DNA from: Naegleria gruberi
Taxonomy: Eukaryota
Reading direction: 5' to 3' (one strand)
DNA: 64,000 nt
NCBI GenBank assembly: GCA_000004985.1
Contig: GG738910.1
Part shown: in pieces, positions 32,462 to 63,872 of the stretch
How positions within the stretch are numbered: the first letter of the stretch is position 1
How the letters are laid out: the number at the start of each line of letters is the position of its first letter
The notes under the pieces: generated by a model
The model's input: the letters and a program-made list of their open reading frames with translations, nothing else
What the model was told of the DNA's origin: nothing
The model's database searches: none
Made by a program: the position numbers and the translations under genes

Positions 32462-32928
32462 GTGGGCAAAAACTTCATAAAAAAATATTCAACATTCTGC
32501 TACTAAAGTAGGACATGATGATTTTCGGAGTGGTTTTGCATCATGAAAGCACCAAACTTTCACATCATCATCTCAACATGATCTATATAGTAGTAATAAT
32601 AGTAATTTTTATTGGTGGATTATCATCATGAAATTGGAATTTATTTTTCATCATGGAAAATCACAAGTTGGTACATCATCATCGGATCACTCACCAACCA
32701 TCATCAATGTTATTTGCCATCAATATAATAATAGTATTTGTGGAATTTAATTTTTAGTAATATAATTTTGGTGAAATGTCAAAATTTTCACTAAATTCAT
32801 CATCACTGCTGGATCTACTGAACAAGTTGGAAAACTGTCAATGTAGTATTGTTCGGAATGATCAATAGTAGGTAAGAGAATTTGGGCAAGTTATGATAGG
32901 GATAGGTACATGTGAATTTTGAAAAAAG
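32462..32928 (-). repeat. Dispersed ~470-bp noncoding element, copy 1, immediately 3' of the 29586..32404 gene (opposite orientation to copy 3)
   Basis: The reverse complement of 32462..32928 aligns at roughly 97-98% identity to 57672..58175 (e.g. 'cagtgatgatgaatttagtgaaaattttgacatttcaccaaaatt' is identical in both). The flanking sequence outside these bounds is unrelated. It contains a 38-codon ORF at 32517..32633. Confidence 0.7.
32517..32633 (+). other. Conserved small ORF inside the repeat element (MMIFGVVLHHESTKLSHHHLNMIYIVVIIVIFIGGLSS*)
   Basis: In-frame stop two codons upstream of the ATG. The same ORF is present in copy 3 on the minus strand at 57981..58097 with one amino-acid change (S->T) and one synonymous change. 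The C-terminal 16 aa are strongly hydrophobic (TM-like). Confidence 0.3.
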
Positions 32929-42357: not shown

Positions 42358-42974
42358 ATTATTCCAATCATCAAGATGTATGTAACATTGCAAATTAATA
42401 AAAACAAAATTGAGAACAAGTAATTATACTAATGGATACTAAAGCTCAGGGACTGTTTCACCTTTAAGGTGATTCAGTCTTGAGACCTGCATTAATGGAT
42501 ATAAATCTTTATTAGCAGGTCCCGAGAATAATAAATATGGCTCTTATAAAAAAACTTATGTTGTGTCTATTAATAATTATCGCACGATGAGCTGTGCCAA
42601 TTTTATTCCTTTCCATTAATAGGATATTTCTCAAGATTTCAAAATCTCGAATACACCATAAAACAGCAAACAATGAATAGAGTACCGACTATGTATTGCT
42701 TACATCCTACCTATATACTTTTCATCATAGGAGACAATGTAGGTGATGTGAAATTTAATTAAAATCAGAAATATCAAAATCTTCATGATTTCAACGAAAC
42801 ACGACGAAATAATTGGCACGGTACATCTACAATAGTACTAATAAAAGTTTATTAATGTTTCAAGATGATTGACTGTGTACTTTTGGCATGAATCATGATT
42901 GGTGACCATGAATAACCCGAAGTTGACAAAAACACAAAATGATGAAAATTGAAAGTTTTCCAAATTATCATGTG

Positions 42975-43310
42975 AATCTGGCAGTGATGATGATTTTAGT
43001 GAAAATATTGAATTTCACTAAAATATTACTATTATCAGATTTATTTCCACAAATATTACTATTATAATGATGATAAATAACAATGATGATGGTTGGTAGT
43101 TGTTCCGATGATCATGTACCAACTTGGATTTTTCCAAATAATAAAATTATGAAGGAAAAATAAAATTATTTCCAAATCATGATGAAAGATTAAATTCCAA
43201 AAATTACTATTAATACTATTATTTAAATCATGATGAGATGATGTGGTGAAATTCTTGGAGTTAATAGATGTGAAACTACTCCAAAAATCAATAGAGTTGT
43301 GATGTACCTG
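42975..43310 (+). repeat. Degenerate partial copy (copy 2) of the dispersed element, between cluster members 3 and 4
   Basis: It aligns in the same orientation as copy 3 (e.g. 'cagtgatgatgattttagtgaaaatattgaatttcactaaaatattactattat...ccgatgatcatgtaccaacttggatttttcc') but with many substitutions and indels. The small-ORF region is disrupted. Confidence 0.5.
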
Positions 43311-43396: not shown

Positions 43397-46300
43397 ATGA
43401 TGAAGACCTCCATTTGCTTCCCATTACTACATTCAAACCACAACATGGCTGTACATTATAGTAAAGGTTCATGTTCAACTACTACTTTGTTGCTAGAAGA
43501 ACAAGATGTGGCTGAAGGTGTTGAACGCCTGTCTCCTCTTGTTCTAAACCTTCGGCTCGACTTCATGCCACCAGTGTTGATTAATAACATTTACTGTCCA
43601 AATATAAAGTGGTGTACTTTGTCAGGAGCGTATGGACTGAAAAGGAAATGCAGAATCGAGATAATGTTTATATTATATAAACTGAACCTTAAAAAAATGG
43701 CCACGTTCATTCAAGAAAAACAAATGGCTGTTTCTAAGGGTGCACAAAAATCATCAATAATTTCAACCATGATGATGATAATTTTTGTATGCCTATTATT
43801 TCTCGCTAACTCGATAAGGGGAATTGACTTTGAGGTTGCGCCTTATTACAAAGTAACAACTTTATTGAGAGAAGCCGATAAAGTTGAGTGTGTTCGTTTT
43901 GGTCCGAAGGGTATATATTATTCCAAGCCATACCAAATAGTTTTATACTCTTTGGACAGTTCTTCAATGTATGTAACTCAAGGAGCTGGCAATTTTGGCA
44001 CTGGAGAAAGAGGCGACACTAATGGTGCTAGATACTGGCGTGATATTACAGGAACATATTCATTAAAATCCAAGATTGATTACCCTTACAAGTTTGCCTT
44101 CCATGCTGGAAGATCCAAAACTTACTTTGCACTGGCTAATCATCAAGTAAAGCTAGACACTGACGATGTTATTTCTCCATTCATTGGTAAACCAAATGTA
44201 ACAGGTAATGCGGAAGGAGATCCTACTTCTGAGTGTCTGTTGAATGATCCTCAAGGAGTTGACGTTTCATTTGATGGTGATTTTGTGTATGTGGCTGATA
44301 CTGGTAACAATCTTATCAAGTATACTTCATACAAAGATGGTGTATTCGTCATTAGTAATCTTGCTGGTACTGGTAACACAACAAGTTTAGTTGACGGTGT
44401 CAATGCTTTACAGGTTGACCTTAATAGACCTGTTTCTGTAAGGTTTTCCAAAAAAACAGGTGAGATTTATATTGCAGAAAAGGGAAATCATGTTATTAGA
44501 AAAGTTAGAAAAGACAATATTGCTTCTGTAGCGGTTGGTTCAATTGGTATCTCAGGTTATAACGGAGATTTTAAGAGTTCTTTGGATTCATTTTTGAGTG
44601 AACCAAGTGATATTGCGATTTCCACTAGTGGTGTTATATATATTGCTGATTCTGGTAATAATCGAGTCAGAAAAGTTTATCAAAATGGTATGTTGGTTTT
44701 CCTCTATTCAGTTTTTACCTTGGGAATGATATATAGGAACAATAACAACTGTATGCGGAAATGGAATGAACATGTATGGAGGCGATTCACTTGATTCTAG
44801 AAGAACAGCAATAGGAGGTGTAAATTCTGTTGATGTTAATGAAAATGGAGAATTAGTTATTTCTCACATGAATTATATTCGTAAATTGACTCCTATTTGT
44901 TATAATGGTTATGTATTCAATTCTGAAACTCATTTGTGTAATCCGTATTTCCAGTGTTTTGGAAAGAAACATACTGAACCATATGTGTGCTCTGGAAGAG
45001 GATCTTGTATTAACCATAATTGTATTTGCAAAGAAGGATTTGAAGGAGAAAAATGTGAAACTATATCAAAGGTTTTCAATGTGAAACGATTGTTGGTTTC
45101 TGGAGAAGTAACAAATCTACCACCATCAATTTTAGCAGCAAATATGAAACATCTTCAAGTGAGCAATACTGGCGACATGATTGTCCTTACACAAGATGGA
45201 ATCCTTGGAAGACTTGTTGGAAACTCACTGGTTAAAGTTTCTCAATCTAGTCTGGCATTGTTCTACCTGGAAGAAGATGGTTCAATACTTACAACATCTA
45301 CTACTTCAATTATCAAGATTGGTATTGATGGAGCTATATTATCTCTTGTAAAAACAACTAATTTCTATGATGTAGATGGCGTCTCACCAACAAATATTAA
45401 TATTGGCGCATTTAGTTGTATTACACAAGATCAAGTTTCAAAAGTCTACTATGTTACAGAATATTACTCAAATGTTTTTGCAAAAGTTGAAAATGGGAAG
45501 TTAGCTTTACTGATTAGTAATACAAAAGGATTTGCAGATGGCTTAAAAAATGTTGCCAGATCTACCTCTCCTAAATTTGTTTATGCATATGGAGGCACAG
45601 TCATATTTTCAGATTATAACAGAATAAGAATGTGGAAAGATTACACAACCACAACAATTGCAGGTAATGGTATCGAAGGATACAACGGAAATAATGTACC
45701 AAAATTGGCCTGTTCTTTTGGTGAAATTGTTGGGTTTCATGTAGTTAGAAAATCAGCAACAGTGTTTTGGATTTACGTTTCTGACAGTTATTCTAGAACA
45801 ATCAGATTAATCAAAACCAATGAAAATAATGTAACTATAATTGCTGGATCCCCTGGGACCGGCAAATACATGAATTTTGAGGATAACCCCAAGAAGGCCA
45901 TTTTTTCATTACCTATTGGTTTATCGATGGTCAATGACACTTTATATTTCATTGACCAAGGAAGTAGTAGAATTATGAGTCTTTCACCTGATGGTACTAA
46001 ACTGACAACCATTGCAGGCGGAAGAGGTGTTTTAAACGTTGGAGAAAATCTAGACCAACGGTTTTCTTATTTTGGTCCATCCCCTACAGGAATTTATCTT
46101 AAAGAATCACCAACAAGGGAATTATTAATTAGTGATAGTAATATTGGCAGAATAAGAAAAAGCATTTTTGAAAACAATCTTTGGGGTAATGTGACTACAC
46201 TTGCTGGTACTTCAACCAGTGAATTGCCAGTTGATAAAGGAATGGATGGTGACTGTTTAACTTGCGCCTTCCTAAGACCTTCAAAAATACGATTCGGGGG

Positions 46301-49300
46301 AAATGAAACTCTACTTGTATCAGAATCGATTAATACTGTCAAACTTATCAATGTTGGGCAGGGATCAGTTAGAACACTTGTTGGAACTCCTTACACTAAT
46401 CCTCTACAAAATCCATCTCTTGTAACTGTCAATACGTCAGCAATAGGATTCCAGATAGATGGGTTACGGGATGCTATTCTTGTTGGAGATGAACTGGTTT
46501 TTGCTGAAAAATCCAGAATTCTTAAGGTCAATTCACAAGGTTTAATAGAAATTGTTGCTGGTGATGGAAATGGTTATTCATGTAATTTTGGTAATTACAT
46601 GTCGGCCAAAATGGCAAAGTTTGGCAATAATGCTGTGGGAACAAAATTGGTAACCTCTCTCGATTATTACGATGGAGAGATTTATATTTTAGAAGAATAC
46701 GCTCTCAGAAAAGTTAATTCCAAAGGAATAATGATACCAATAATTAGTGGGCAAGGAACAACGTCTTGGTCGAATGGAGTTAGAAAATTGCCATTACAAG
46801 ATGCATCAATTCCTGCATGTAGTTTTATGAAAGTTGTTAATGAAAATGAGATTTATATTCTCAGTACTGCAGGACAGTTGTATATTGTAAGAAATGGAAC
46901 TGTTGAGAGACCTATTATAACTAAAGATTTATCTTTTATGGGCCCAGTATATTCCCAATTCTATAGCACAAGCGATGGAGAATTTTACATGTTGACTGCA
47001 AATACGGTTGAATTAGGTAAAATGAGTTGTCCTTCATTTTCCAAACAAAATGAAAATGATACATGTGAAAATATGATAACTTGTTTTGGTTTAAAGTCAA
47101 CAGATCAAAATGTTTGTTCAACGAATGGTAAATGTTCAGCTTTGGATACATGTATCTGTAATTTTGGTTGGAGTGGTGTTAAATGTAATGAATCAACTGC
47201 TCAATTGGTGATTCAAAGCCTGAACCCAAACAGAGTTACCACTGATGATGGACTTGATATTGGTTTCAAAACCTCCTCTTCTCCATTGACAAATTTAAAA
47301 GTTGATACAAAAACAGGAATTGTTTATTTGCTTTCTGGAGGAAAAACCATTTCTCTCAACGGCAAAACAAATGATTGGGTTAGATCCAGTGATACAACAT
47401 CAAAATCTATGATTATTTCTAAAACAACAGGTTACTTCTATTTTTTAAGAGAATCTTGCATCTACCAAAGGGGAGCAACTCCTTATCCATATTATTATTC
47501 TGGAAATTGCTACACTAAGGGTTCAGTTCTTGGAACTATTTCAACCGCATCATATAACAACTTGGAAGATGGTGACTCTGGGGAGGATGGTAGTTTGTAT
47601 ATAGTTGATAGTGGAAATCACGTTGTAAGATTAATATCAGAAGGAGTAATGTCAACCTTTTGTGGTAGTTTTGGTGTTTCTGGTTTATTTATCAACTCTA
47701 ATTCCTCAACCAAAACTTTTTTGAAATCACCAAGGGCCATCAAAGTCACCTCAAACGGGGTTTACATTGCTGATAGTGGAAATTACAGAATTCTTTTTAT
47801 TGATAAATCTGGACATGTCCAAAAAATTGCAGGGTCATCAAATGGTACATCAAATGGGGATGGAAAAGCAACTCTGACAAATATTTTCCCTTCTAATTCA
47901 TTGGATTATTCAGAGAGTCGCCAAGAACTGTACTTTATAGATAATAATAGAGATGAGATGAATTCAGGGAGTGTAAAAGTAAGAAAGATTACCAAAGATG
48001 GATATGTTGAAACGTTGTTTGGTTATTACGAGAGGGATCCATATTCAAACTTAACAGTTCCAATGACCATCACACTGGAAAAGGATACCAGTTTCTATGC
48101 AGCAAATTCTTTGGCTGTTTCAGGTGATTACTTGTATTTAACATTTGATTCTGTGAAATTGATTGCAAAAGTTTCACTTTCCACAAATACCTTGTATGTG
48201 GTTTCCAAAATAGGTTCAGTCCTGAATGGTGATGGCTTTCATGTCGGTTTTACCACCTTCCAACACCCAAGTGCACCATATTTCCATAGTATTACTCGTA
48301 CTTTGTATTGGGTTGAAATGTCCTCAATAAGAATGATGAGAGATAACAAAGTTTACACCGTGGTTGGCCTTAATTCAAACATTCCTTCCTTTGGAAAGAT
48401 GAAACCATTGTGGAAAGATATTTCTCCAAAAGGAATTGCACTTTCATCAACTGGAGAGTTATATTTTTCTGATGGACAGCATGTCATTTATAAGATTCTA
48501 AATTCAAGATCTGATATTGAAATTGTTTGGGGAAAGAAAGGTGTTTATGGAAGTGCTGACACTCTTCTAGAAAATCCAACTGCTATTTTTATTAATTCCA
48601 AAGATGAACTGTATATTGCTGATTCATACAGAATAATCAAGTTTGACATCACCTCCAAGAAAATTACTAAAATAGTGAGTAAGAGTGATGTATATTTTGG
48701 TATATGTTCATCAGTGATAGAACTTTCAACAGGAGAAATAGTCTATGTGGATTCTTATTTTAAAAAAGTTAGAATGATTCTCAACAATGGTACAAATATT
48801 ATAATCGCTGGTGGTGGTTTAAAAACAGGTGTTTCGAATGGTGATCTTGCAACAAAACTACTTTTCACCACTCCTGTTTCAGTTCAAGAAATCAACACAG
48901 GAGTATTACTTTTGCTGGAGCAAAACTCTTTGATCAAGATGACTTGGTCTCCATCTAGAAATGGTTATATTTGTTCAATAATTGCTGGAAAGGGCTTATA
49001 TAGTATGACTGCCTCAGGAAATGGTGGTCTTGCGATAAATGCTGTTATCTATAATTTTGCTATGAGTTACAATACATTTACGAAAGAGGTTTATCTTCTT
49101 GACAATGTTGAGTCAAGAATTATCACTCCGTACTGTCCAGAAGGGTTCACTTTTAATATTTCAAATGAGACATGTCAGCCAGTTGATATGTGTTTTGGTT
49201 TTAATTCAAATGACAACAGAGCGTGTTCTGGAAGAGGTGAGTGCGTTGGTCTTGATGCATGTAATTGTTTTGGAGGTTACAGTGGAATCAAGTGTGAAAT

Positions 49301-52300
49301 AATGTGTCACAAAACATGTGAAGGAACTGTTGTGGACGCATCATTCATGTTAACGGAATTCTCAACTGATTTTAGCAAACCTGGCAATTTGGTGGTAGAT
49401 TCTGAGTACATTTATGTTTCTGATTCTGAAGACAATGTAGTTAAACGTTTTGATAAGGGTGGATATTCTTCAATTTATTGTGGAATTGAAGGACAAAGTG
49501 GCAACCAAGGAAATGGTTTACCAGGAACTGAAGCCACACTAAATTCACCTCTAGGTTTAAGTGTATACAATAATGAACTATTTATTGCTGATTTTAACAA
49601 TAGTGTCATCAGAAAGGTTGACGCTTTTGGGTTTGTTGATGTTGCATTCAATACAACAGAAAAACCTCTCAACATTATTGCCAGGGGCGAAAACGTATTT
49701 TACTATACAGATTCCACTTCATTGTACATGATTAACCAATCAGTTATTAGTACCATTGCAACAGGATTTGATAGTCCTTATGGATTGTTCTATTATTCAA
49801 ATACGTCCAACATGGAGGAAAGTTTACTAGTTGCAGATACCAATAATAACTCAATCAAGAAGGTATCTCTCTCTGATAGACAAGTTACCATAATTCTTTC
49901 TAATTTGAATTCTCCTAAAGGACTATTCATTGATTCTTTTGGTGATCTTTATATTGCTGACAGTGGATCAAACCAAATTTTAAAGTATTCAGGAGGTGTT
50001 TTGAAGGTAATTGCAGGAACATCCAATTCCTCAATGAATGGTACAGATGGTGCAATCAATTCACTTCAAGCAATTCTGCACTCTCCTAGTGATCTTATTG
50101 TAACAGATGAAGGAATTATTTATTTCACCGATTCACAAGGATATGCCGTGAAAACTCTCACTCCTGTTTGTGATAAAATTTCCATGTATGATCCAATTTT
50201 AAGAAAGTGTTTCCGACCTCTACTTTGTTTCAATTTTGGTATTGATGATAAGAGAGCTTGTAGCTCTAATGGTCAATGTGTTGCAGAGAATACCTGTAAT
50301 TGTAATGATAATTGGGGAGGGGATGATTGTTCCATTCCATCATGTTTCAACATTTCTGCTTCAAGTACCACTACGGTTTGTTCTGGACATGGTTTGTGTA
50401 TTGATCATAATACTTGTCGATGTGATACTGGTTGGTCTGGTGCTGACTGTTCAATTGCATCATGTTATGGTATCAAGGGTGATAACAGTTCAGTATGTTA
50501 CGGAAATGGCCAGTGTGTCGGTTTTAATCAATGTTCTTGTAATAATGGATGGTCTGATTTCGATTGTTTGACACCTTCGTGCTTTGGCTTGACCTATGAT
50601 TTGGATTCTTCATGTTCTGGAAATGGCAAATGTATTTCTAATGATACTTGTGAATGTTATTTAGGTTATCAAGGTCCTGATTGCTCTACAGTGTCAGTCG
50701 ATCCATTCCAAGTATACAATCCAGTACTAACTGTTAAGACTATTGGTTCTTTGAACAAACCAAAAGGAGTTACAGTATCTTCGAGTGGTGATATTTATTT
50801 CAGCGATACTAGCAACAATAAGTTGAAGAAGATATTACAATCTGATTGGTCTGTATCTCTTATTGCTGGAACTGGTACTGGTTCGTTTTCAGGTGATGGA
50901 TCTTCACCAACAGCAGCCACTATTAATAATCCTATTGGTTTGGATATTACAGAAAACGGAGAAGTTTATTTTGCTGATTCAAATAACAATAGAGTTAGAA
51001 AATGTAGTTATGATGGTAAATTAATCTCGACAGTGGTCCAAGTTACATCTCCTCAACAAGTCAAAATTGACGAATACAATAATCGATTGTGGATTGTTGC
51101 TTCTGGAGGAGTTTACATGTATGATTTGAATATTGCAAATATGACCCTTGTATACAGTAATGATCTCAATACTCCATTCGGAATTGATATTGGATATCAA
51201 GGTAAAATAGTGTACATTACAGACAAATCAAATCATGTTATTAGAAAGCTCGCAAAAAGAGGTAATTCATATGTTCAATCTATTTATTTTGGAAGTAAGG
51301 GAGTAACTGGAACCTACTCATCAACATCTAATATGAATAACCCAATGGGTATATCAGTAACTAATGGTAATAGTATTATATTTTCTGATTCCTCTAATCA
51401 TGTAATTAAACTGATTTCTCATGGAGTTAACAAGACAACATCAGTTATTGTTGGTACTGGATCTTCATCAGGTTATTCAGCAACAGAAACTAAACCTCTT
51501 TCCATGGCTCTAAATACTCCCGGTGATGTATTTGTGAATGAGAAAGGAATTTATATTGCTGATACCAATGACAACGCCATTAGAATTATTAAGATTTCAT
51601 GTCCATACACTAACTATGTTTTCAATTATTATACTTCCAAGTGTGAATTTGATACCAGAATTTCTTGTAATAAGATTTCATTTTCTTCACCAAATGTTTG
51701 TAATGGTAAAGGTGTTTGTTATGGAGTTGATAAATGCAACTGTACAAGTGGGTGGAATGGTACTTTTTGTGAAATACCTATTTGTTTTGGAGTGTCCAAT
51801 CCAAAACTAGCTTGTAGTTCAAATGGTCAATGTATTTCTAACAATACTTGTTCCTGTAATGATGGTTGGTTTGGATCTATTTGTCAAAATCCATCTTGTT
51901 TTGGAATTTCATATAATGATTCAAATACCTGTTCTGGAAATGGTCAATGTATTGCAAATAATACTTGCTCGTGTGATAATTTTTACGAAGGCAAAAATTG
52001 TTCTCTTCCAAAATGTTTTGGTATTAATTCAGACAGCTCATTGGTTTGTAGTGGAAATGGTTTATGCGTTAGCCCAGATACATGTAATTGTACTAGCGGT
52101 TATTTTGGAAATGATTGTTTTTACACAAATTGTTTTGGAATATTGTCAGGAGAAACTACTGTATGTTCCTCAAAAGGAAACTGTACTGCTCCAAATACTT
52201 GTTTTTGTGAAAAAGGGTATTATGGGAATCAGTGTCAAAACTTTACTTGTTTTGGAATTGACTCATTCAGCCCCAATGCTTGCTCATCTCGTGGAAGTTG

Positions 52301-55300
52301 TATTGACATCGATAAATGTAAATGTGGAGATGATTTTTATGGTTCTAATTGCACAGGGTTTGATTGCTTTGGTTATCCATCAACTAATCCAAATACTTGT
52401 TCTGGTAAGGGTGATTGTTTAAATCCAAACACTTGTATCTGTAATGATGGTTATGCAGGTGAAAGGTGTGAAATTGCTCGTTGTTTTGGAGTTTATGGAA
52501 ATGAATCAAACGTATGTGATTCACATGGTGAGTGTGTATCCTTAGATAACTGTACATGTACATCACTTCATCATTATGGAGATAATTGCGATAGATTTGA
52601 TTGTTTTGGAATTGAGAGTAGCAATTCAAGTGTTTGCTCTTCCCATGGAAATTGTACTTTCCTTGATATTTGTAATTGTTCGAAAGGTTACGAAGGTTTA
52701 TCATGTTCTGAATTCAATTGTTTTGGAAAAAAGCCAATCGCTTCTGATATTTGTTCTGGAAATGGCATTTGTACTGGTCCAAATATATGTAATTGCAAAG
52801 ATGGGTATTTTGGAGATGATTGTCAGATAACCAATTGTTATGGAATTCATAGTAATGAGTCTAGTGTATGTTCATCAAATGGTAGATGTATTTCTTTAGA
52901 TTCTTGCTCTTGCTCTTTTGGATATTATGGAGAGATGTGTCAAGAATATGATTGTTTTGGAATGAAACACTCAAATACAAGTGTTTGTTCACAACATGGA
53001 ACATGTCATTCTCCAAATAATTGCACTTGTAATGATGGATATCATGGTGCAGACTGTGATAGATTCAATTGTTTTGGAGTTTCTTCTTTCAATAGTTCAG
53101 TATGTTCATCAAGAGGTTACTGCAAATTACCAAATGTCTGTTCTTGCACTGGAACTTTTTATGGTGAAAATTGTGAACAATATGACTGTTTTGGAATCAA
53201 TTATCAAAACTCAAATGTTTGTTCCTCACACGGTAAATGTATTGGGGCTGATGCTTGTCAGTGTTATGATGGATATATATCTAGTAATTGTTCTGTTCCT
53301 CTTTGCTTTGGTATTTCAGCTCTTAACTCGTCAGTTTGTAGAGGACATGGTTATTGTACTTCACCTAATAAGTGTGACTGCATTTCGAATCAAGATACAA
53401 AGTTTGATGGACAGGAATGTCAAAATCATTTCTGTAAGGAATACGATGGAACCTTAATAAGGTTTAACAATAATTCAGTTTGTAGTGGTTCTGGAGTTTG
53501 TAAGTTAAATCGAGTCATGAAGAGAAGCGAATGTGTATGTAGTGAAAATTATGGAGGAGAGTCTTGTGAAATGCCAAAATGTTTCGGTATTTTACAAAAT
53601 GAGACAAGTGCTTGTAACAACAATGGATTTTGTTCAAGTGTAGATACTTGTGAATGTCATCATAATGATTTTTTTGGATATTGGAAGGGTTCTAATTGTA
53701 CACAATGCCAAGTTCCATATTCTGGATCCAAATGTAATGTTATTAAGGAGTGCAATGCTTCTGTCTGTCATAACAATGGTATTTGTGACGAGTACATGAC
53801 TTGCATTTGTAATTCTAATCAAACACATGGTTTCTGGAATGCAGAATTTTGTAACGTTTGTCAAGAAGGTTATTATGGAAAGGAGTGTTCCACGCAAATG
53901 CTTGGCCCTCTTAAATTAAGTGGAGAGGCATCATCCATGACATTCAAGATGAATGCTCCAATTTCATTTTCAAAGACAAGTGTTAACTGTACAAGATTTT
54001 TGAGGGAAGATTCTTATGAAACTGTTGGAGGATTGCAATCTATTTGTTCTTGGAATAATAGTATGATGAAAGTGACATTTGGTGCTTCATTTGATGTTAA
54101 ATCAGGTAGAATTATTTATTTGAATAGATTGGTCTTTGATGAGAGCGGATATGATTACGAACCGATCAAATTGGAATATCCAGATACACCAATCCTTCCT
54201 ACTGCCATTGTCGAATCAAACAAATTAGTTGGATCTTGCGACAGTATTATAATTGATGGAAGTAAGAGTTACTCTCCTGATTCTAAACCTCTTTCATTTT
54301 CTTGGAAAGTTGTTAATTCTCCAAATATTAATAGTTTGCAACACATTGTACAATCACAAACAAGATCTATTCTTTCCATTGATAGTAGCAATTGCTCTAC
54401 AGGTGTTCACATTTTCGAGCTGATTGTAAAGAGTTCTATATTAGAATTACAAAGTATTCCACTAACAATTTCCATCACTAAGGCAGAAATTCCTCTACCA
54501 ACTATTTCCATAGATGCACAAGCCTCCCCTCTCACAACTTCAAAGTTACCATACAAGATAATGAAAAGTACTGTTTTGCCTGATTGTGCTCAATCTTTGA
54601 GTATGATATATAATTGGAAGCTGGTGAGCGGTAGAAACGATATTGTTTTTGAGATGGATCAATTTAATAATTTAGTAATTATCAATTACTTCCTGGAAGA
54701 TTCAAGTTATGAATTTGAATGTAGTGTATTTGTGGAAGGACATGCAGAAAATATTATTACTTCAAAAGTTTCCTTTAGTACCAAGATTAGTCCTTTATCT
54801 TCTGAAATCAGACTTGTTGAATTATCAACCAATTATACTATTATTCAATTATTGTTCAGGGATCCAGAAATTGTTAATGAAGAGGTTAATGTTGAATGGG
54901 AGTGTATTGATTTGGACACCAAACTGAATTGTTCATCGTCACTTCTTTCCCATCTTTCAACTTTACCTCTTAACTCTGAATTTTTAATATCTGGAAGTTT
55001 GTTATCAAATTACAACAACATATCCTTGAAATCTACTATCAAGAAGGGAAAGAGAATTTCCAATAGTGAACTCGTAGTAACCATTCCTCAAAAAACACTC
55101 CCTCCAATTATTTCACCTGTTTATCTGTCGCCAAGTAATTTAGCTCTAGGATCGAGTATTAATCTTCAATTTGGTGTAACTATCGATGGAAGTGATGACA
55201 TTAGTTCAGCTATTAGTAGAAAATGGACTCTCAACAATGTTGTTATTGAAAAATCAGATAGTATGAGACTGGATCCATCTGAATCCAACTCCTTAATATT

Positions 55301-57002
55301 AGCAACTAATTCTTTTACAGAAGGGGCCACATACAAGATTGATTTCAAAGTGACTGACCAAAGAAATAATCAATTTTCAATCTATTCCTATTCTTTTTCA
55401 ATCAAGATTTCTCCAAAGTGTACATGTACAATTAGTCCATCATCTGGTTATGCTCTCCAAACTCTTTTTACATTTGCATGTACTGATTGTAAAAATAATC
55501 AAGGACCTTTATCGTTCGAATATGGCTTCATAGATAGTCGTTACCAAACTAGAGTAACCTTATCAAAGAGTTCTAAATATTCGGCCGTTCTCCCATCCTC
55601 TTATCAAGGAAATACATTGAATCTGTATGCTGTTGTTAGTGACTCTGTAAGTCAATCATCAAGTTATTTGAGTGCAGAAGTTCTTGTACCTGTCATTGGT
55701 TCACTAGCTGAAGCAAAGAAGAAACAACTTCAATGGAAAACAACAGGTTCCTCACTCAAAGATGGTGATTATATGAAGAGTGTGTATAGCAATGATGTTA
55801 TGACAAGTACTTTCACAAAGATGATTGCCTCTTTACTATCAGCAAGATCTGTTTGTAACGGAAAAGGAGTTCTAAATAATGGAAAATGTCAATGTGATAA
55901 TGGGTATTCTTCATTTGATTGTAGATATACCACTTCTGATTATGTATCCATTCAAGAGAGTGTATTTGATTTATCTAACGATTTTAAAGAAACATTTGGT
56001 GTTTATCTAGATTCCAAAGATATTCTAAGCGAAAAGTTTGTTGCCAATATTATTTTCGGACTTGAAACTTTGACAAATCGTTTTGATTTCTTGAATGAGA
56101 CATCTTTTGACATTATCTTATCAATTGTTGATCATTTATTGGAAGAACACGAAAAGTATTCATCAGTTCAAACATCCAATGGTGTAGATACGCTCTTACT
56201 CGATATTTTGGATCATTTATATTCTTTTACAGAATATTATGAGATTAAGGAACAATTAATGAGCAAATTAATTGAAATTTCCCAAAGACTCTCTTCACTT
56301 GAATCAAGAAAAATATTGGTCGGCCAACCTCCTTTAATTCTTTCCAATCAATTACAAACTTCAATTACCAACAAACATTTTAGAGAGGAATATTCAGGAC
56401 TAGTAATTAGATATAATAATTATTCTACTATACTACCAGAGTCTTTCTCAAAGCATCTATCCAATCAGCCAAAGAGAGTACCAGTTACTTACAGTTGGTT
56501 TGCTCTTAAAGATCTTTCACAATTCATATTACCAGGAAATGCATCAAGAATTATCTCAAAATATGTTGTGAAATTCACATTGGAAAAGGTTAAATATTTG
56601 GAATTATTGAAAGAACCTGTGAAATTTGAAATACCACTCATTGAACCAATAGACATGAATTCTAATAAGTATTCCTGTATTGACTTTTCCAACATGACAA
56701 TGCCAGTGGAAAGTGAGTGCCAATTTAAAGTGGAAAATGGAATAGCCTCTTGTTCTTGCTTAAACTACTCAAGTACCGTTGGAATAACATTCTTTGAACG
56801 CAGTCGAAGAGCTCCATCAATTCTTGCAGTTAAAACTGCACCACTTTGGGAATTATTCTCTCTACTCACAATTCCATTTGCAATAATTTTGGTTGGTTGT
56901 GCATTCACAATTAAAACGATTTTTAACAGAAAAATCAGCCTTGACAATAATCAATTCGAATTGAGAAACGTGGACAGCATGATTGTGACGGAATCAGCTT
57001 AA
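43397..57002 (+). CDS. Cluster member 4 (giant, ~4,400 aa): NHL propeller(s), ~45 tenascin-type EGF units, PKD/REJ-like module, GPS-like motif, C-terminal TM; 2 exons, approx join(43397..44687,44737..57002); functional start probably at the ATG at ~43697 (MATFIQEKQMAVSKGAQKSSIISTMMMIIFVCLLFLANSIRG signal)
   Basis: ORF 43397..44794 joins ORF 44766..57002 through a 49-nt intron (caaaatg|gtatgt...atatag|gaacaataacaactg), restoring ...RVRKVYQNG|TITTVCGNGMNMYGGDSL.... The module shares collinear blocks with member 5 (GSCDSIIIDGSKSYSPDSKPLSFSWKV vs GSCEDVLIDASESYSPDRKTLNFKWTV; KCTCTISPSSGYALQTLFTFACTDCKN vs KACSCAISPTSGIALTTIFTFNCENCQN; KSVCNGKGVLNNGKCQCDNGYSSFDCRYT vs KDCSGHGSLVNGKCVCEADYTTFDCRMT). 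Juxtamembrane YSCIDFSNMTMPVESECQFKVENGIASCSC, TM LWELFSLLTIPFAIILVGCAFTI. Confidence 0.6.
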
Positions 57003-57671
57003 TAAATATTACTGTATTCTCAAACATTCGAAATGTTCAAAAATAAGGGGTGTATTCCAACAGTGTGACGTAGTGGATTTCCAGACCTCTTTTTCAGGGT
57101 AGTTCAACTCCAGCTATTTTGATATGAGCTGATGAAATACCTTCTATCTCAATTAATTTGTCAGATATTGAAGTAATAAATTGTACAGAGAGAGAATATA
57201 TCACTGGGAATCTATCTTCTTCTAATGAATGTTTCTCATCCCTTATTCGTTGAATATAATAGTAAAGTATCACAAATATTAAAGAACAATAGTGAAAATT
57301 ACAGGAAAAGATAATTATCTGGTGGATGAATGACATGCTATTCGTGATGTTTCAGTGAGAAGACAATATCCACATCATGAGAAAAACAATAAAAACATGA
57401 AAATATCAGATATCCATGAATTTCACAAACTATGCTATAAGACTCGAAATTATACATTTAATAACATAATAAACATTATGAATTGTTGTTTTATTGTTGT
57501 TTGATTTGTAATTGGGCTATGAAACTCTGGTAACATCAAATATCAGAACTTGGTAAATTGACAACATGAAAATCTGATAATAAATATGATGTTTATTATC
57601 TATTTAAATAGTAGTACTAAAAGACATGATTCAAGTTGGTGAAGTACATGCTGAGTTATGGTCCATGTACT

Positions 57672-58175
57672 TTTTCAAAATTCACATGTACCTATCCCTA
57701 TCATAAATTGCCCAAAATTGATAAGAGAAAGTTCTCCTACCTACTATTGACCATTCCGAACAATACTATATTGACAGTTTTCCAACTTGTTCAGTAGATC
57801 CATCAGTGATGATGAATTTAGTGAAAATTTTGACATTTCACCAAAATTATATTACTAAAAATTAATTTCCACAAATACTATTATTATATTGATGGCAAAT
57901 AACATTGATGATGATTGGTGAATGATCCGATGATGATGTACCAACTTGTGATTTTCCATGATGAAAAATAAATTCCAATTTCATGATGATAATCCACCAA
58001 TAAAAATTACTATTATTACTACTATATAGATCATGTTGAGATGATGATGTGAAAGTTTGGTTGTTTCATGATGTAAAACCACTCCGAAAATCATCAATGT
58101 TAAATATTTTTTAAACTTGGTTTTTGAGTAGAATGTTGAATATTTTTTTATGAAGTTTGTTGTGAGCGAGGTATG
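57672..58175 (+). repeat. Dispersed ~500-bp noncoding element, copy 3, immediately 3' of the minus-strand giant gene (58206..) and ~670 bp 3' of member 4
   Basis: Roughly 97-98% identical to the reverse complement of 32462..32928, apart from two ~20-30-nt indels. It carries the same small ORF on the minus strand (57981..58097; the track shows it extended to 58205 as a 74-aa ORF). Confidence 0.7.
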
Positions 58176-58205: not shown

Positions 58206-61200
58206 TTAAACAGACTTCATTTCAACTCCTTGTTTTGAGGAATTTGTAGTTTCTGGTTTCATTCTCTTAACAACACAATAACCAAAAATTCCCAATACAA
58301 TAAAGGCAATAATGATAAAGCAAATAATCAAAAAAGCCCACAAAATCCAGAATAACTCAGAGATTCCCTTTGGAGTTTCAGGATTAACTTGTTTTTCAAT
58401 TGGAACAGATGATAAAATACCAACTCTAACATTTTCTGAACATTCACATTGGCCAGAATTAGAATTGAAGGAGAATTTACATGAAGAAGCATCAATGACT
58501 TGACCATTTGTAACTTGAATGCACGAATAAGTTGCCTTATCATTAAAAGTTTGTGTAAGTGGCAAGGAATGAGTTATTGGAGAGGAATAGTTTGTAATAG
58601 ATGTTGAGAATTTAATTTCAGATAAATCAGAGACAATAGTATTAGTTGTACCTTCTTGTTGAGGAGTTACATATTGAGAAACATCCTTAATAATCATCCA
58701 AATGTAATTGACTGGCTTTCTGAGAGAGACACTTTGTAACCTTTGAGAAACAGTTGAAGGAAGAGTTAATGAAGTTTGACTTTCTGTCAAAACTTGTGAA
58801 TCAAAAGTATTCTTAAATTGCTTGTTGAATTGATGAACTGCAAAATTAGGTTCAAACTTGAAAGATGATTGACCAACAAGAACCTTTCTTGAAAGTAATG
58901 AAACCACCATGTGACAACTTTCCATCAATTCTGAATAGTCATACGAAGGCAAAGTCTTTAAATAAGAATGCATGGAATTGAGGGACGAAAGCAACAACCT
59001 TTCAACACCAACTTCAAATTGGAATAATGGAGTGTTTTCAGCATCATTCAAGGTTGACTTGATAATATTCATACTCATGTTATAGACATTAGCAGAAACG
59101 TAACTCTTCAACATAGATTCAATACCGAACATAATGTTAGTAAAAAACCTTCCAGTTATCTTTTCTCCATTTTCATTCTTGACTTGTTGGGAAGAAAAGA
59201 AAGCAGTAGCCAAATCTTGAGTAATTTCATTCAAAATTTCATAATCTTCCTTTGTCATTCTACAGTCAAATGTTGTGTAATCAGCCTCACAAACACATTT
59301 TCCATTAACCAATGAACCATGTCCAGAACAATCTTTCTTTACACTTCTTGATTTAGGGGCGAGAGAATCTGTCATTCTCTTGAGGACTCTTGAAATGATT
59401 GCAGAATTGAAAACAGATCTAGCATAATCACCAGTTGGTAATAATAAGGTGATGGCGTTCCATTTTGTCATGTACTCCTTGATATCCTTTACCTTTGATA
59501 CATATGGAGCTGTAATTTGAACTGATTTCTTGGAAAGAGTTGTTGCAGATGTTTCAGTATCAATAACCTTAACATACAGTTCAAGATTATTACCAGAATT
59601 TGGAGTTGGAAGTTTTTGGTACAATTCTTCATCCTTTGATAAGGTAATTAAAGCACCTGAGAAATCATCAATAAAACCATATTCGAAAGCATAAGTCTTC
59701 TTATCATTTTGACAATTTTCACAATTGAAAGTAAAGATTGTGGTCAAAGCAATACCAGAAGTTGGACTAATGGCACAACTACATGCTTTTGGAGGTCTGT
59801 TAACAGAGAAGGAATAAGAATATGATGTCTTTTGATTATTTCTCTTATCCAAGATAGTTAATGAAATGGTATTAGAACTACCTTCATCCAAATATTGAGT
59901 ATCCAAAATTAGAGAATTTGACAATGATGAACTGATACTCATTGGTGATGTTAATATAGCATCAATAGCCTTGTCATTCAATAACCATGTTCTTGAGATG
60001 AATTGATCTATATTTAAATCACCATTAATAGTGACAACCAATTGAATATTGACATAATCTCCCTTATTAACCTTTGAAGAAGATACTTGAACAACGGAGA
60101 TCAAAGGTGGCATGATTAAATGTTCTGCTTGTTGTGGAAAATTCAAATCAACTGATGATTGAACAAATCTACTTCCCTTTCGAATAGTGAGGCTAATTCT
60201 AACATTTTCTGCTGAACCAAACATTGACTTTTCAATCTTGTATTGTTCAAGAAAACCTTGAGACAAGTAATTAACAACATCAACTGGACAAACAGTATTA
60301 GTAACAGTGTCCACACATGTCCAAGAATAAGTTGGTTGAACATTTTCAGATTCTGGATCAGTGAAATCAATTCCAATGGTACTGTATTGAGGAGTAGAAT
60401 CTAAAACATACATGTTCATTGAGAGTGCTTGAGCTACAGTGTCGATAGTGACAAGAGCTGTTGAAAATTTGTTAACATTAGAAGTATCGAAAGCAGAGAC
60501 TTTGAAAACATATTGTCTTGTTTCAATGGTATTGAAATTGGTAATCTTTAAATTCTTGAATGAATCAACTGTGAATTCTACTTGAGGACCACTGATTTGT
60601 GTCCATGTGTAATCAATATTTGCAGCAGATTCCATGCATATTGGAATGGACAGCTTCTTCTTGAATGAAATTGGAACGTCACTAGTCTTGACAGTAACTG
60701 AACTACTTTTATATAAGCCATCAATGGAAACAACTGGAACAGCATAGGTAAGTTTGGTGAAACTGAATTGAATCTTATCAACCAATGAATAAACTTGACT
60801 AGTTACAGCCAATTCAAATTGATGAACACCAGCATTCATACCAGAATAGCTAATATTCAATTTACTTGGGGAAGCAAGAGTAGAATCCAATAACTTTTGA
60901 AGTTCTACCTTATTTGGTGATGACAATACAGTCCATTTGAAATTCAATGTCTTTCTATCAGGGGAATAACTTTCAGAAGCATCAATTAAAACATCTTCAC
61001 AACTTCCATAAGTGTCCTTAGCTCCAGATATTGTGGCAATCGGACTCTTTGGTGATAAAGCACCTTGGACAGTAAATGCCAAATATTGAGCATTGACATT
61101 ATTTGATTCAAAGTATAAATTATTCAAAGAGATACTATCACCTGCCTTCAATTTGTAGTCCGTGTTAAGTTCAATTGAGAATTCAAACGTTTCCTTGTTA

Positions 61201-63872
61201 GACCAGTAACATTTTGGATTAGTTCCAAGAAGATCAATACTCTTCAACAACTTGTTACAATCAAGAATCATACTATTAGTATATAAAGAAGAATAAGATG
61301 CAGGTGCAATAACCTTAAATGTCAAACCAGTCAAATCATCCATAAAAAGAACTGGTCCAATAATCTTTGTTGAACACAATTCACCATAAACTCCATCTGC
61401 ACAGGTAGAACAAGATTCACCCTTCCAGAAACCTTTCTTGTTATCTGCATAACAAGTACATTGTTCAAGCTCATTACAATAACCATTTCCACTACAAGTA
61501 GTTGAGGCATTACATTTAACCAAACTATTACACATAGCTCCTAAATAAGGAGAAACACATGCTGAACAATCTGCACCAGTCCAATAACCTTTGCCAGCTA
61601 TGTTATCACAGACACAAATATTCAAATCTGTACATTGACCATGTCCAGAACAAACAGATGAAGCATTGGAAGAAATGCCACCACAAGTGAATTGAGCACA
61701 ATGACTTCCGTAATATCCAGATTGACAAGAACAATGATCGAAAAAATCACATCTACCTTTTCCATAACATGCTGACGCATTTGTTGAGGCAGTTCCATAA
61801 CAATCAAATTGACTACAATCATATCCAGTAGTATCCATCTAAACAGGAGCAATTATTTGGGGAGATGCAACCACCATGTCCATAACATGCTGAACCACTT
61901 GTTGAGGCAGTTCCATAACAATCAAATTGACTACAATCATTCCCGTAGTATCCATCTAAACAAGAACAATTATTTGGTGAGATGCAACCACCATGTCCAG
62001 AACATGCTGATGCATTTGTGGAGGCAGTTTCGTAACAATCAAATTGACTACAATCATTTCCGTAGTATCCATCTAAACAAGAACAATTATTTGGTGAGAT
62101 GCAACCACCATGTCCAGAACATGCTGATGCATTTGTGGAGGCAGTTTCGTAACAATCAAATTCACTACAATCATTTCCATAATATCCAGCTAAGCATGAA
62201 CAGTTATTTGGTGAGACACAACGACCATAACTAGAACAAACTGAACCACTTGTTGAGGCAGCTCCAAAACAATCAAACTCAGCACAGTCATTTCCGTAAT
62301 GTTCGTTAGAGCATGAGCAATTATTTGGTGAGATGCAATCACCATGTCCAAAACAAACTGAACCACTTGTTGAGGCAGTTCCAAAACAATCAAACTCAGC
62401 ACATTCATTTCCATAGTATCCAGAGGTGCATGAACAATTATTTGGTGCAATACAATAGCCATTTCCAGAGCAAGCTGATGAATTACTTGGTGAAATATCA
62501 AAACATTTGAAAGAACTGCAATCTGATCCACTATATCCAGCTAAGCATGAGCAGTTATTTGGTGAGAGACAGGTTCCATGAACAGAACATGCTGATGCAC
62601 TTTTTGAGGCAGTTCCAAAACAATCAAATTGGCTACAATCATTTCCATAGTAATCGTTTGAGCATGAGCAATTATTTGGTGAGAGACATATTCCTTGAGA
62701 AGAACAAACTGATGAAGAAGTAAATAATGTACCAAAACATTCGTATTCACTACAATTACTACCATAGTATCCATAGGTGCATGAACAATTATTTGGAGCA
62801 ATGCAACTACCATGACCAGAACAAACTGATGCATTACCTGGAGCAATGTCATAACATTTGAATAAACTACAATCAGCACCACTGTATCCAGATAAACAGG
62901 AGCAATTGTTTGGAGCAACACAACTTCCATGTCCTGAGCAAACGTTGTGGTCAGTATTCAAAATATCACTACAATTAAAAAGTTGACAATCTGCACCAAA
63001 GTAATTTGTTTCACATTTACAAGTATCTATGGCTGTACATGTTCCGTGGCCTGAGCAAACAGTTGAGTTGTCACCTGAAATTCCATTACATGTTGGATAT
63101 TGACAAGTGTTTGGAGCAACACATGTGGTATATTGAGGACATGCTTTTGGATGTGTGGCCACAATACCATTACACTTTGGAGTTTGACAATTTGAACCAC
63201 CCCAAAGTACACCATAATCTGTCAAGCTGCCAGGAGGAAAAAAAGTATCCTTTCCAAACCCATGGAAAGGAAAAGTTAAACAAGCACCTTTAGTATTGTT
63301 AGCGAAATAATCAGACACTTGAAGTACTAACCTTCTAAAGAATAAAGAACCATGTTCCCATCAACTTGGAGAACAAATTTGAAAGGTGGAGACTGACTAG
63401 CACACTCACCAGTTTTCATGGCTTCCCTGTGTTGATTCAAATCTGCCTTTTCCGTGTTACCGTCGTACAATTTAAGAGAACCAGTTTGTGTTAACACTAA
63501 CTTATAACCATCAGTTGCTGGGCCGAAAGTAGAACTATACCGAGTCATTGTTCTGAGACCTATCTGAATGAGACTACCATCATCGTTCAAGATTAAAGTC
63601 AACTTTCCATCAGCAGATGTTAATGCTTTAGTTGCATAGAGAATTGGTGATTGTTCAGTGAGGCCTGTTTTTTCTGAAAGATCAACACAGAGGCAGCTGT
63701 TTTCACCATAGCAAATATTCCCTCCACAAGTCGAATTGTCTGTTCCAGGAATTCCATTACAAGTATATGAAGTAACCTCACTGATTATGAAAAGCAAAAG
63801 GATTACCAACACCGACACGAACAGTTTCATGTTGTGGATTTTTTTTAAAGTCGAATTTTCAAATTGAATCAA
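58206..63872 (-). CDS. Cluster member 5 (giant, ~2,400 aa, minus strand): signal peptide + bulb-type (B) lectin domain exon, tenascin-type EGF array, PKD/REJ-like module, GPS-like motif, C-terminal TM. Interrupted by an apparent 1-nt frameshift at ~61822-61838. Approx join(complement(63332..63872), complement(~61822..63287), complement(58206..~61838))
   Basis: Exon 1 (ORF 63327..63872) is MKLFVSVLVILLLFIISEV... followed by ...ATDGYKLVLTQTGSLKLYDGN...FKFVLQVDGNMVLYSLEG, the bulb-lectin 'QxDxNxVxY'-type fold. A 44-nt intron (gttagt...gctaac...ctaaag) puts it in frame with ORF 61819..63318, which is all CxCxxGYxGxxC units. That frame hits TGA at 61819 exactly where a repeat unit reads GYYWI* in place of GYYGNDCSQFDCY. 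The +1 frame continues as MDTTGYDCSQFDCYGTAS... (ORF 58206..61838). C-terminus: YSCIQVTNGQVIDASSCKFSFNSNSGQCEC..., TM LFWILWAFLIICFIIIAFIVLGIFGYC, tail VVKRMKPETTNSSKQGVEMKSV*. Confidence 0.55.
61822..62290 (-). repeat. Tandem array of near-identical 117-nt (39-codon) EGF-unit repeats inside cluster member 5
   Basis: Units encoding DCSQFDCY(E/G)TAST(N/S)(A/G)SAC(S/Y)GHGGCISPNNCSCLDGYYGN are repeated at least three times (approx 61822..61938, 61939..62055, 62056..62172) with about 1-3 substitutions per unit, and more divergent units farther 5'. The antisense strand reads as the spurious His-rich ORF 61809..62234. Confidence 0.75.

What the first reader, a model, noticed from the sequence alone, without database searches (positions are those of the whole stretch)
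61822..62290. Concerted evolution and recent expansion of 117-nt EGF-unit tandem repeats
Adjacent 117-nt units (39 aa, one tenascin-type EGF each) differ by only 1-3 nt. Units farther 5' in the same array, and all EGF units in the other cluster genes, are far more diverged. This indicates recent unequal crossing-over or gene conversion inside this receptor, a mechanism for rapid length and sequence variation of the ectodomain. A smaller instance occurs in member 3 (see the 37217..38028 finding).
Basis: seen in the sequence. Interest (0 to 1): 0.5.

Follow-up and report, generated by a model that had tools for sequence, protein, structure and literature searches.

The report
Recently duplicated EGF unit in amoeba receptor
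A surface-receptor gene of the amoeba Naegleria gruberi carries a tandem array of 117-base EGF-domain units in which one neighbouring pair is almost identical, an ordinary recent duplication or conversion, and the reference sequence has a one-base frameshift beside it that the public gene model hides with an implausible intron.

Summary
The window is Naegleria gruberi NEG-M. The gene is NAEGRDRAFT_74099 (XP_002670973.1), on the minus strand. It encodes a signal peptide, an N-terminal domain, 13 in-phase 39-aa tenascin/teneurin-type EGF units, PKD/REJ modules and one transmembrane helix.

Just one adjacent pair is near-identical: units 7 and 8 (61936..62169) differ at 2 of 117 nt, with synonymous divergence 0.04 against a median of 0.59. 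Unit 9 differs from unit 8 at 11 nt and unit 6 from unit 7 at 25. All other pairs differ at 20-67 nt.

A recent recombination origin is well supported:
- Similarity falls with distance along the array (permutation p = 0.0002).
- Units 5-10 form a young zone that ends at a sharp breakpoint inside unit 10.
- Units 1-3 and 4-6 form an older 351-nt block duplication.
- Site patterns are mosaic (PHI p = 0.0005-0.006).
- EGF arrays in the two neighbouring family genes have no pair closer than 41/117.

The extra base creates a stop at 61819..61821. The annotated protein bridges it with a 73-nt "intron" made of EGF coding sequence.

This is ordinary repeat dynamics. Variation between strains could not be tested.

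The parts
58206..63830 (-). Whole gene NAEGRDRAFT_74099 (XP_002670973.1, EFC38229.1, D2VYF2) of Naegleria gruberi NEG-M. It encodes a signal peptide, an N-terminal domain, an EGF array, PKD/REJ modules, one transmembrane helix and a short tail.
   Evidence: The annotated 1835-aa protein P0001 is identical to the window translation over its first 647 and last 1187 residues. Hydropathy peaks occur only at aa 1-20 and about 1806-1841.
63332..63830 (-). Exon 1: signal peptide and most of the N-terminal ~200-aa domain.
   Evidence: No Pfam family matches. The domain aligns with the N-terminus of N. fowleri FDP41_012117 (24% identity, E = 3e-9).
63288..63331 (-). Intron 1, 44 nt: GTTAGT...CGCTAAC...AG.
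   Evidence: It is needed to join exon 1 to the EGF open reading frame exactly as in the annotated protein.
61584..63105 (-). Array of 13 in-phase 39-aa (117-nt) six-cysteine EGF units, numbered -1 to 11.
   Evidence: TRF period 117. Cysteine pattern repeats every 39 aa. Pfam EGF_2, EGF_TEN and EGF_Teneurin score above their cut-offs.
62170..62871 (-). Older three-unit (351-nt) block duplication: units 1-3 (62521..62871) and units 4-6 (62170..62520).
   Evidence: TRF period 351 scores 1163. Differences are 23 (units 1 and 4), 36 (2 and 5) and 25 (3 and 6), against 37-43 for neighbouring units. The 1+4 clade has 97% bootstrap support.
61761..62403 (-). Young or homogenised zone of the array: units 5-9 plus the 5' 57 nt of unit 10.
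   Evidence: Adjacent differences here are 20, 25, 2 and 11. Unit 10 differs from unit 9 at 3 of its first 57 nt but at 26 of its last 60 nt.
61936..62169 (-). The near-identical pair: unit 7 (62053..62169) and unit 8 (61936..62052). They differ at 2 of 117 nt, one synonymous (GGA/GGG) and one Glu/Gln (GAA/CAA). The full tract is 61916..62178.
61818..61935 (-). Unit 9, 118 nt long and mosaic. Nt 0-19 are identical to unit 8, nt 20-45 to unit 5, and nt 0-36 to unit 10. It differs from unit 8 at 11 nt.
61819..61830 (-). Frameshift site. The sequence reads TAC TGG ATA TGA where sister units read TAC GG(G/A) AAT GAT. That is one extra base plus one substitution, and it puts a stop in frame at 61819..61821.
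   Evidence: Deleting one base (for example 61823) gives an uninterrupted 1859-codon reading frame.
61772..61844 (-). The 73-nt 'intron' of the public gene model, judged artificial. It consists of the last 27 nt of unit 9 and the first 46 nt of unit 10.
   Evidence: The model reads ...SPNNCS|SCYGKGRC.... The donor is GTTTAG and there is no CTAAC branch motif. It is the shortest of 126 frame-restoring GT-AG pairs. Real short introns nearby have GT[AT]AGT and CTAAC.
61701..61817 (-). Unit 10, a chimeric boundary unit. Its 5' half resembles unit 9 and its 3' half is old and unique (CDFFDHCSCQSGYYGSH).
59463..60617 (-). PKD-like module (about 60444..60617) and REJ module (about 59463..60362).
   Evidence: Pfam REJ E = 6.6e-22 (78 bits, cut-off 25). 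K319L-like PKD scores 31 bits (cut-off 27).
58280..58370 (-). Single transmembrane helix (LFWILWAFLIICFIIIAFIVLGIFGYCVV), followed by a 25-aa tail.
   Evidence: Hydropathy analysis and the sequence itself. Coordinates are approximate.

Best explanation
The EGF array of this N. gruberi receptor gene grew by repeated out-of-register homologous recombination or replication slippage between its 117-nt units. The latest event was most likely a tandem duplication of exactly one unit, giving units 7 and 8, which have since acquired 2 substitutions. Earlier events of the same kind produced unit 9, the hybrid 5' half of unit 10, the unit 5/6 pair and the three-unit block (units 1-3 and 4-6). Short gene-conversion patches have also moved sequence between units. 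For example, a 26-nt stretch of unit 9 is identical to unit 5. Each unit is one self-contained EGF fold and 117 is a multiple of 3, so gaining or losing a unit keeps the reading frame and simply lengthens or shortens the extracellular stalk. Shown here: the identity pattern, the identity at synonymous sites, the decay with distance, the breakpoints and the mosaicism. Inferred: the molecular mechanism, the direction of change (gain rather than overwrite) and any functional consequence.
For: Units 7 and 8 differ at 2 of 117 nt, while 78 pairwise comparisons have a median of 41.5. Synonymous divergence for units 7 and 8 is pS 0.04, against a median of 0.59 for other pairs, so this is not protein constraint. 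The near-identical tract at offset 117 is 146 nt long. That is one full period plus conserved flanks, as expected for a one-unit duplication. Differences rise with distance along the array (Spearman 0.49, p = 0.0002). Neighbour-joining gives 7+8 (95%), 7+8+9 (89%) and 1+4 (97%). TRF finds a 351-nt higher-order period. Unit 10 switches from 95% to 57% identity with unit 9 at about nt 57. PHI tests for mosaicism give p = 0.0005-0.006. EGF arrays of two neighbouring family genes have no pair closer than 41/117, so this array is exceptionally young. An independent case exists in N. fowleri: in FDP41_012117 two adjacent EGF units differ by 1 aa, while the same two units in paralogue FDP41_005591 differ by 7 aa.
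Against: Only one assembly of one strain is available, so no copy-number polymorphism has been observed. Duplication and whole-unit gene conversion predict the same present-day sequence. The PHI signal can be inflated by correlated changes within codons in such short units. The gene is frame-disrupted in the assembly right next to the young units. That raises the possibility that local sequence or assembly quality is imperfect, or that the gene is no longer under selection.
Confidence: 0.6

Rival explanations
1. Gene conversion only. An existing, diverged unit was overwritten by its neighbour, so the unit number did not change and there was no expansion.
For: Patchy tracts shared between non-adjacent units show that conversion operates in this array (a 26-nt run shared by units 9 and 5). 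In the N. fowleri paralogues P0012 and P0020 the unit count is equal (9 each), yet one adjacent pair is homogenised, which is conversion without any change in copy number.
Against: The near-identical tract spans the whole 117-nt period and runs into both flanks (146 nt). The other conversion-like patches in the array are only 20-40 nt long. The array also shows clear signs of growth: a 351-nt block duplication and a hybrid boundary unit.
Confidence: 0.28
2. Assembly artefact. Two alleles or reads of a single unit were laid down in tandem, or the repeat was mis-joined, so the extra near-identical unit (and perhaps the frameshift) is not in the genome.
For: The neighbouring unit carries a frameshift that breaks an otherwise intact 1859-codon gene, which could reflect locally poor sequence. 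N. gruberi is reported to be heterozygous (Fritz-Laylin et al. 2010, as cited in PMC9928731).
Against: The two copies together span only 234 nt. From general knowledge, the reference assembly is Sanger-based and one read would span them. The copies differ at 2 positions and are flanked by distinct units. The graded similarity (2, 11, 20, 25 differences) is a biological pattern, not a collapse or expansion error.
Confidence: 0.07
3. The similarity is maintained by strong purifying or convergent selection on the protein sequence of these particular EGF units, and not by recent common ancestry.
For: Units share conserved cysteines and an SPNNCSC motif.
Against: Synonymous sites are as conserved as non-synonymous ones in units 7 and 8 (1 synonymous and 1 non-synonymous change, pS 0.04). 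Other unit pairs with the same conserved motifs have pS 0.3-0.85.
Confidence: 0.02

Closest known systems
Intragenic tandem repeats of cell-surface adhesins (e.g. yeast FLO1; Verstrepen et al. 2005, recalled from my own knowledge)
   Same: In-frame tandem units lie in the ectodomain of a surface protein. Neighbouring units are near-identical, as expected from unequal recombination or slippage, and could give length variation.
   Different: Here each unit is a whole folded EGF domain of 39 aa, not a low-complexity Ser/Thr-rich stretch. Only one pair is near-identical. No length polymorphism has been demonstrated.
Human LPA kringle IV type 2 copy-number repeat (recalled from my own knowledge)
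   Same: A whole protein domain is the repeat unit, and near-identical tandem copies arise by unequal recombination within one gene.
   Different: LPA units are about 5.5 kb with introns and occur in many identical copies that vary between individuals. Here the units are 117 nt, intron-free and present as two near-identical copies, and population data are absent.
Tenascin / teneurin EGF arrays (Pfam EGF_2, EGF_TEN, EGF_Teneurin)
   Same: Six-cysteine EGF units are packed head to tail with no linker. Pfam scores are above cut-off.
   Different: This is a protist protein with a different overall architecture. It has no fibronectin-III or fibrinogen domains (tenascin) and no YD shell (teneurin).
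Polycystin-1 / sea-urchin REJ receptor family
   Same: A REJ module (E = 6.6e-22) and a PKD-like module lie between the ectodomain repeats and the membrane.
   Different: No GPS motif was detected by Pfam. There is a single transmembrane helix rather than 11, and no PLAT or channel domain.
N. fowleri EGF-GPS-7TM-RGS receptors FDP41_012117 and FDP41_005591
   Same: They share a homologous N-terminal module (E = 3e-9) and 39-aa EGF arrays. One adjacent pair is homogenised in one paralogue (1 aa against 7 aa).
   Different: The C-terminal half is different: GPS, seven transmembrane helices and RGS, rather than REJ and one transmembrane helix. That comparison was made at the protein level only.

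Membership tests
Tenascin/teneurin-type EGF repeat (Pfam EGF_2 / EGF_TEN / EGF_Teneurin) | Six cysteines with C-x4-C-x10-C-x5-C-x5-C-x-C spacing, and a profile score above the curated cut-off | tested here: met
   13 units match the cysteine pattern at an exact 39-aa period. EGF_2 scores 184 bits (cut-off 22), EGF_TEN 153 bits (cut-off 65) and EGF_Teneurin 94 bits (cut-off 24).
Recently duplicated or homogenised tandem coding repeat | Adjacent units far more similar than distant units | tested here: met
   Differences correlate with distance along the array (Spearman 0.49, p = 0.0002). However, only one pair is near-identical (2/117).
Recently duplicated or homogenised tandem coding repeat | Identity extends to synonymous sites (ancestry, not selection) | tested here: met
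   pS is 0.04 for units 7 and 8, against a median of 0.59 for other pairs.
Concerted evolution (strict sense) | Repeats within a genome are more alike than orthologous repeats between species or strains | not testable with these tools
   No orthologue was found. The best non-self hits are N. gruberi paralogues at 25-34% identity. No other N. gruberi data were found. An analogous test on N. fowleri paralogues was positive.
Concerted evolution (strict sense) | Mosaic or conversion tracts among units | tested here: met
   PHI p = 0.0005-0.006. Unit 9 shares a 26-nt exact run with unit 5 and a 37-nt run with unit 10. The units are short, so this evidence is supportive rather than conclusive.
Length-polymorphic (contingency-type) surface repeat | Unit number varies among isolates | not testable with these tools
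   Only the NEG-M assembly exists in the searched collections.
Polycystin-1 / REJ receptor family | REJ domain | tested here: met
   PF02010 E = 6.6e-22, 78 bits against a cut-off of 25.
Polycystin-1 / REJ receptor family | GPS cleavage motif and a multi-pass PKD membrane domain | tested here: not met
   No GPS hit even at E <= 10 on the juxtamembrane 180 aa. There is only one hydrophobic helix.
Spliceosomal intron (for the annotated 61772..61844 feature) | Donor and branch motifs like the other short introns of this locus, and non-coding character | tested here: not met
   The donor is GTTTAG and there is no CTAAC, whereas three neighbouring short introns have GT[AT]AGT and CTAAC. The sequence is codon-for-codon homologous to coding parts of sister units. 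Splicing would leave a 9-cysteine hybrid. No transcript data were available.

The most novel reading that the evidence does not exclude
The 1-nt insertion in unit 9 is real and the annotated 73-nt segment of former EGF coding sequence (61772..61844) really is spliced out. That would be a very recent 'intronisation' of repeat coding sequence that rescues a frameshifted receptor gene. A milder version is that the insertion is real and unspliced, turning a membrane receptor into a secreted lectin-like/EGF protein in the laboratory strain NEG-M.
Probability: 0.04. Interest if true: 0.6.

Novelty: new member of a known kind. Interest (0 to 1): 0.2.

Why it matters
As a phenomenon this is textbook. 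Domain-sized tandem repeats in surface proteins duplicate and homogenise by unequal recombination. The local value is threefold.

First, one member of a lineage-specific N. gruberi EGF-REJ receptor cluster has a much younger array than its neighbours. That makes it a sensible marker locus for variation between strains.

Second, the public protein model XP_002670973.1 is almost certainly wrong around residues 640-660. It hides either a sequencing error or a very recent inactivating mutation.

Third, N. fowleri shows the same kind of unit homogenisation in a related receptor, so the behaviour may be general for Naegleria EGF arrays.

None of this would surprise a specialist, and it does not open a long-standing question.

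Tried and rejected
- **Other copies of the locus.** I looked for other strains, transcripts or environmental relatives in order to count units. Exact-product look-ups found nothing. The homology search found only the reference protein plus distant paralogues. A protein-pattern scan and a degenerate DNA scan of metagenome contigs found nothing. The cluster of P0001 has a single member.
- **Literature.** Searches gave nothing on this gene family. The EGF hits were eGFP. The N. gruberi genome paper is not held.
- **Domain assignments.** Pfam does not support my by-eye impressions of a bulb-lectin fold (QVDGNMVLY) or a GPS motif, so neither is claimed.
- **Programmed +1 frameshifting at AUA UGA U.** I rejected this. 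The out-of-frame TGA is an automatic by-product of the AAT GAT codons, and AUA cannot re-pair in the +1 frame (my inference, no test).
- **A real intron that skips exactly one unit.** One unit-phase GT-AG pair exists (61874..61757, 118 nt), but its donor is weak (GTGGTT) and it has no branch motif.
- **The + strand ORF 61809..62234.** This is a mechanical consequence of a stop-free repeat and is not evidence of a gene.

Full report
**What is there**

The interval lies in a gene on the minus strand. Translation of that strand gives two long open reading frames, 61819..63318 and 58206..61838, preceded by a short exon with a signal peptide. A homology search identifies the locus as Naegleria gruberi NEG-M. 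The annotated product is a 1835-aa "predicted protein", NAEGRDRAFT_74099 (XP_002670973.1, EFC38229.1, D2VYF2).

Pfam places ten EGF_2 matches (E = 3.8e-55), EGF_TEN and EGF_Teneurin in the upstream frame. It places a K319L-like PKD module, a REJ domain (E = 6.6e-22) and further EGF modules in the downstream frame. Hydropathy shows only an N-terminal signal sequence and one C-terminal transmembrane helix. The protein is therefore a single-pass receptor-like molecule: an N-terminal domain, 13 exactly in-phase 39-aa EGF units, PKD/REJ modules, a transmembrane helix and a 25-aa tail.

The same window holds two more genes of this family, 36244..42357 and 44766..57002. Both have EGF arrays and REJ domains.

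**Checking the observation**

TRF reports a 117-nt period over 61749..62943 at 77-78% match, and also a 351-nt period. I cut the array into units in the register of the first cysteine codon. Unit i starts at 62988 - 117i on the minus strand. I then counted differences for every pair of units.

Adjacent differences from the 5' to the 3' end of the array are 50, 45, 41, 37, 43, 41, 20, 25, 2, 11, 29, 53. Only units 7 and 8 (62053..62169 and 61936..62052) fit "1-3 nt".

A profile at offset 117 shows one near-identical tract, 61916..62061 against 62033..62178, of 146 nt with 2 mismatches. No alternative register gives more near-identical pairs.

The pair is nevertheless far outside chance. The probability of 2 or fewer differences is 9e-8 if the pair were only as similar as the next-closest pair outside units 7-9, or 7e-6 after correcting for 78 pairs.

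In the arrays of 36244..42357 and 44766..57002 the closest pair of 39-aa units differs at 45 and 41 of 117 nt, with medians of 58.5 and 56. The only other high-identity repeat inside a gene is the 257-nt block in member 3 (37216..37472 against 37774..38030, 96%). It consists of one EGF plus an Asn/Ser/Thr-rich linker and has sharp borders.

**Ancestry or selection**

Nei-Gojobori counts give pS = 0.04 and pN = 0.01 for units 7 and 8 (one synonymous and one Glu/Gln change). For units 8 and 9 pS is 0.25, and for units 5 and 6 it is 0.28. The median for the remaining pairs among units 0-9 is 0.59. Identity at silent sites excludes protein-level constraint as the cause.

**History of the array**

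Several lines of evidence point to repeated recombination.

- **Decay with distance.** Differences rise with distance along the array (Spearman 0.49, permutation p = 0.0002).
- **Tree.** Neighbour-joining recovers 7+8 (95% bootstrap), 7+8+9 (89%) and 1+4 (97%).
- **Block duplication.** The 351-nt period reflects an older three-unit block duplication. Units 1 and 4 differ at 23 nt, units 3 and 6 at 25, and units 2 and 5 at 36, against 37-43 for their neighbours.
- **Chimeric boundary unit.** Unit 10 differs from unit 9 at 3 of its first 57 nt but at 26 of its last 60 nt. This marks the 3' edge of the young zone at about 61760.
- **Mosaic unit.** Unit 9 is identical to unit 8 over nt 0-19, to unit 5 over nt 20-45 and to unit 10 over nt 0-36.
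- **PHI test.** A pairwise-homoplasy-index test shows that compatible sites cluster (p = 0.0005-0.006, depending on the subset of units). This supports a recombinant history. Correlation within codons may contribute in such short units.

Together these results fit repeated out-of-register recombination or slippage plus short conversion patches. The latest event covers one full period, so I favour a one-unit tandem duplication. Conversion of a whole unit cannot be excluded.

**Related sequences**

No orthologue exists in the searched collections. The best non-self hits are N. gruberi paralogues at 25-34% identity. N. fowleri, N. lovaniensis and Acrasis proteins match only in the EGF part.

An informative parallel turned up in N. 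fowleri. Its EGF-GPS-7TM-RGS receptors share the N-terminal module of this gene (24% identity, E = 3e-9). Paralogues FDP41_012117 and FDP41_005591 both have nine EGF units that correspond position for position (2-9 aa differences between corresponding units). In FDP41_012117 the adjacent units at aa 419 and 458 differ by 1 aa, while the same two units in the paralogue differ by 7 aa. That is homogenisation without a change in copy number. It shows that conversion acts on Naegleria EGF arrays.

Unit 9 is 118 nt long. Where sister units read TAC GG(G/A) AAT GAT TGT, it reads TAC TGG ATA TGA TTG T. That is one extra base and one substitution, with a stop at 61819..61821. The downstream frame resumes at once and stays open for 1210 codons. 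The other two frames of that stretch contain 53 and 139 stops. The base-composition expectation for no stop in 1210 codons is 5e-40. Deleting a single base (for example 61823) yields one 1859-codon frame with 13 regular EGF units.

The public model bridges the defect with a 73-nt intron, 61844..61772, which reads ...SPNNCS|SCYGKGRC.... I judge this intron to be artificial for four reasons.

- It consists of the last 27 nt of unit 9 and the first 46 nt of unit 10, which are codon-for-codon homologous to coding sequence in sister units.
- Removing it deletes cysteine 6 of one EGF and cysteines 1-2 of the next, leaving a 9-cysteine hybrid.
- Its donor is GTTTAG and it has no CTAAC. The confirmed 44-nt intron 1 and two candidate short introns nearby have GT[AT]AGT donors and a CTAAC 8-13 nt before the AG.
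- It is simply the shortest of 126 GT-AG pairs that would restore the frame.

The choice is therefore between a sequencing error and a very recent real mutation. These tools cannot decide between them. By eye, the changed bases recreate the hexamer TGGATA found 10 nt upstream. That is a weak hint of a templated, and therefore real, mutation.

**Comparison with what is known, and verdict**

Mechanistically this is the familiar behaviour of in-frame, domain-sized tandem repeats. Yeast FLO adhesins and the human LPA kringle IV-2 repeat are comparable cases, recalled from my own knowledge. The units are tenascin/teneurin-type EGFs. The carrier resembles the REJ/polycystin-1 family through its REJ domain, but it lacks a detectable GPS motif and the multi-pass membrane part.

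A recent recombination origin is solid. Expansion as opposed to conversion, and variability between strains, remain untested. Interest is low. The most useful practical outcome is the flag on the gene model.

Noticed in passing
window 32470..32926 (+), 57671..58158 (-), 42948..43290 (-): A dispersed non-coding repeat. The first two copies are 90% identical over 488 nt, and each lies immediately 3' of the stop codon of a family gene (30236..32404 + and 58206..61838 -). The third copy is about 75% identical. None contains an ORF longer than 74 aa. It could be a shared 3' UTR or terminator module, or a small mobile element.
   Followed up: partly
window 37216..37472 and 37774..38030 (+): Within member 3 (36244..42357), a 257-nt block encoding one EGF plus an Asn/Ser/Thr-rich linker is repeated 558 nt downstream. 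The copies are 96% identical and have sharp borders, while the sequence between them is unrelated. This is a non-adjacent duplication or conversion.
   Followed up: partly
window 63332..63830 (-) and continuing to ~63150: The N-terminal ~200-aa module contains QVDGNMVLY, which resembles the QxDxNxVxY motif of bulb-type lectins. It has no Pfam match even at E <= 10. It is homologous (E = 3e-9) to the N-terminus of N. fowleri EGF-GPS-7TM-RGS receptors, so the same ectodomain head is attached to two different membrane anchors.
   Followed up: partly
proteins P0012 (FDP41_012117) and P0020 (FDP41_005591), N. fowleri: The two paralogues have the same nine EGF units. Adjacent units at aa 419 and 458 of P0012 differ by 1 aa, while their counterparts in P0020 differ by 7 aa. 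This indicates gene conversion within the array. P0013/P0021 (FDP41_006070/6071) look like a fragmented third copy with a broken EGF unit.
   Followed up: partly
window 30024..30084 (+), 36151..36189 (+), 63288..63331 (-): Three very short introns (61, 39 and 44 nt) have GT[AT]AGT donors and a CTAAC motif 8-13 nt before the AG. Each lies just upstream of a long family ORF. Only the third is confirmed by the annotated protein.
   Followed up: partly
window 30236..32404 (+), 43397..57002 (+): The neighbouring genes carry NHL/teneurin-NHL repeats. The 4078-aa ORF 44766..57002 combines several NHL blocks, about 18 or more diverged EGF units, a REJ-like region and a transmembrane helix. The C-terminal architecture is colinear with that of the gene studied here, so the window holds a cluster of a lineage-specific receptor family.
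   Followed up: no
window 61809..62234 (+): A 141-aa ORF on the opposite strand of the repeat exists only because the repeated unit has no stop in that frame. There is no evidence that it is a gene.
   Followed up: no
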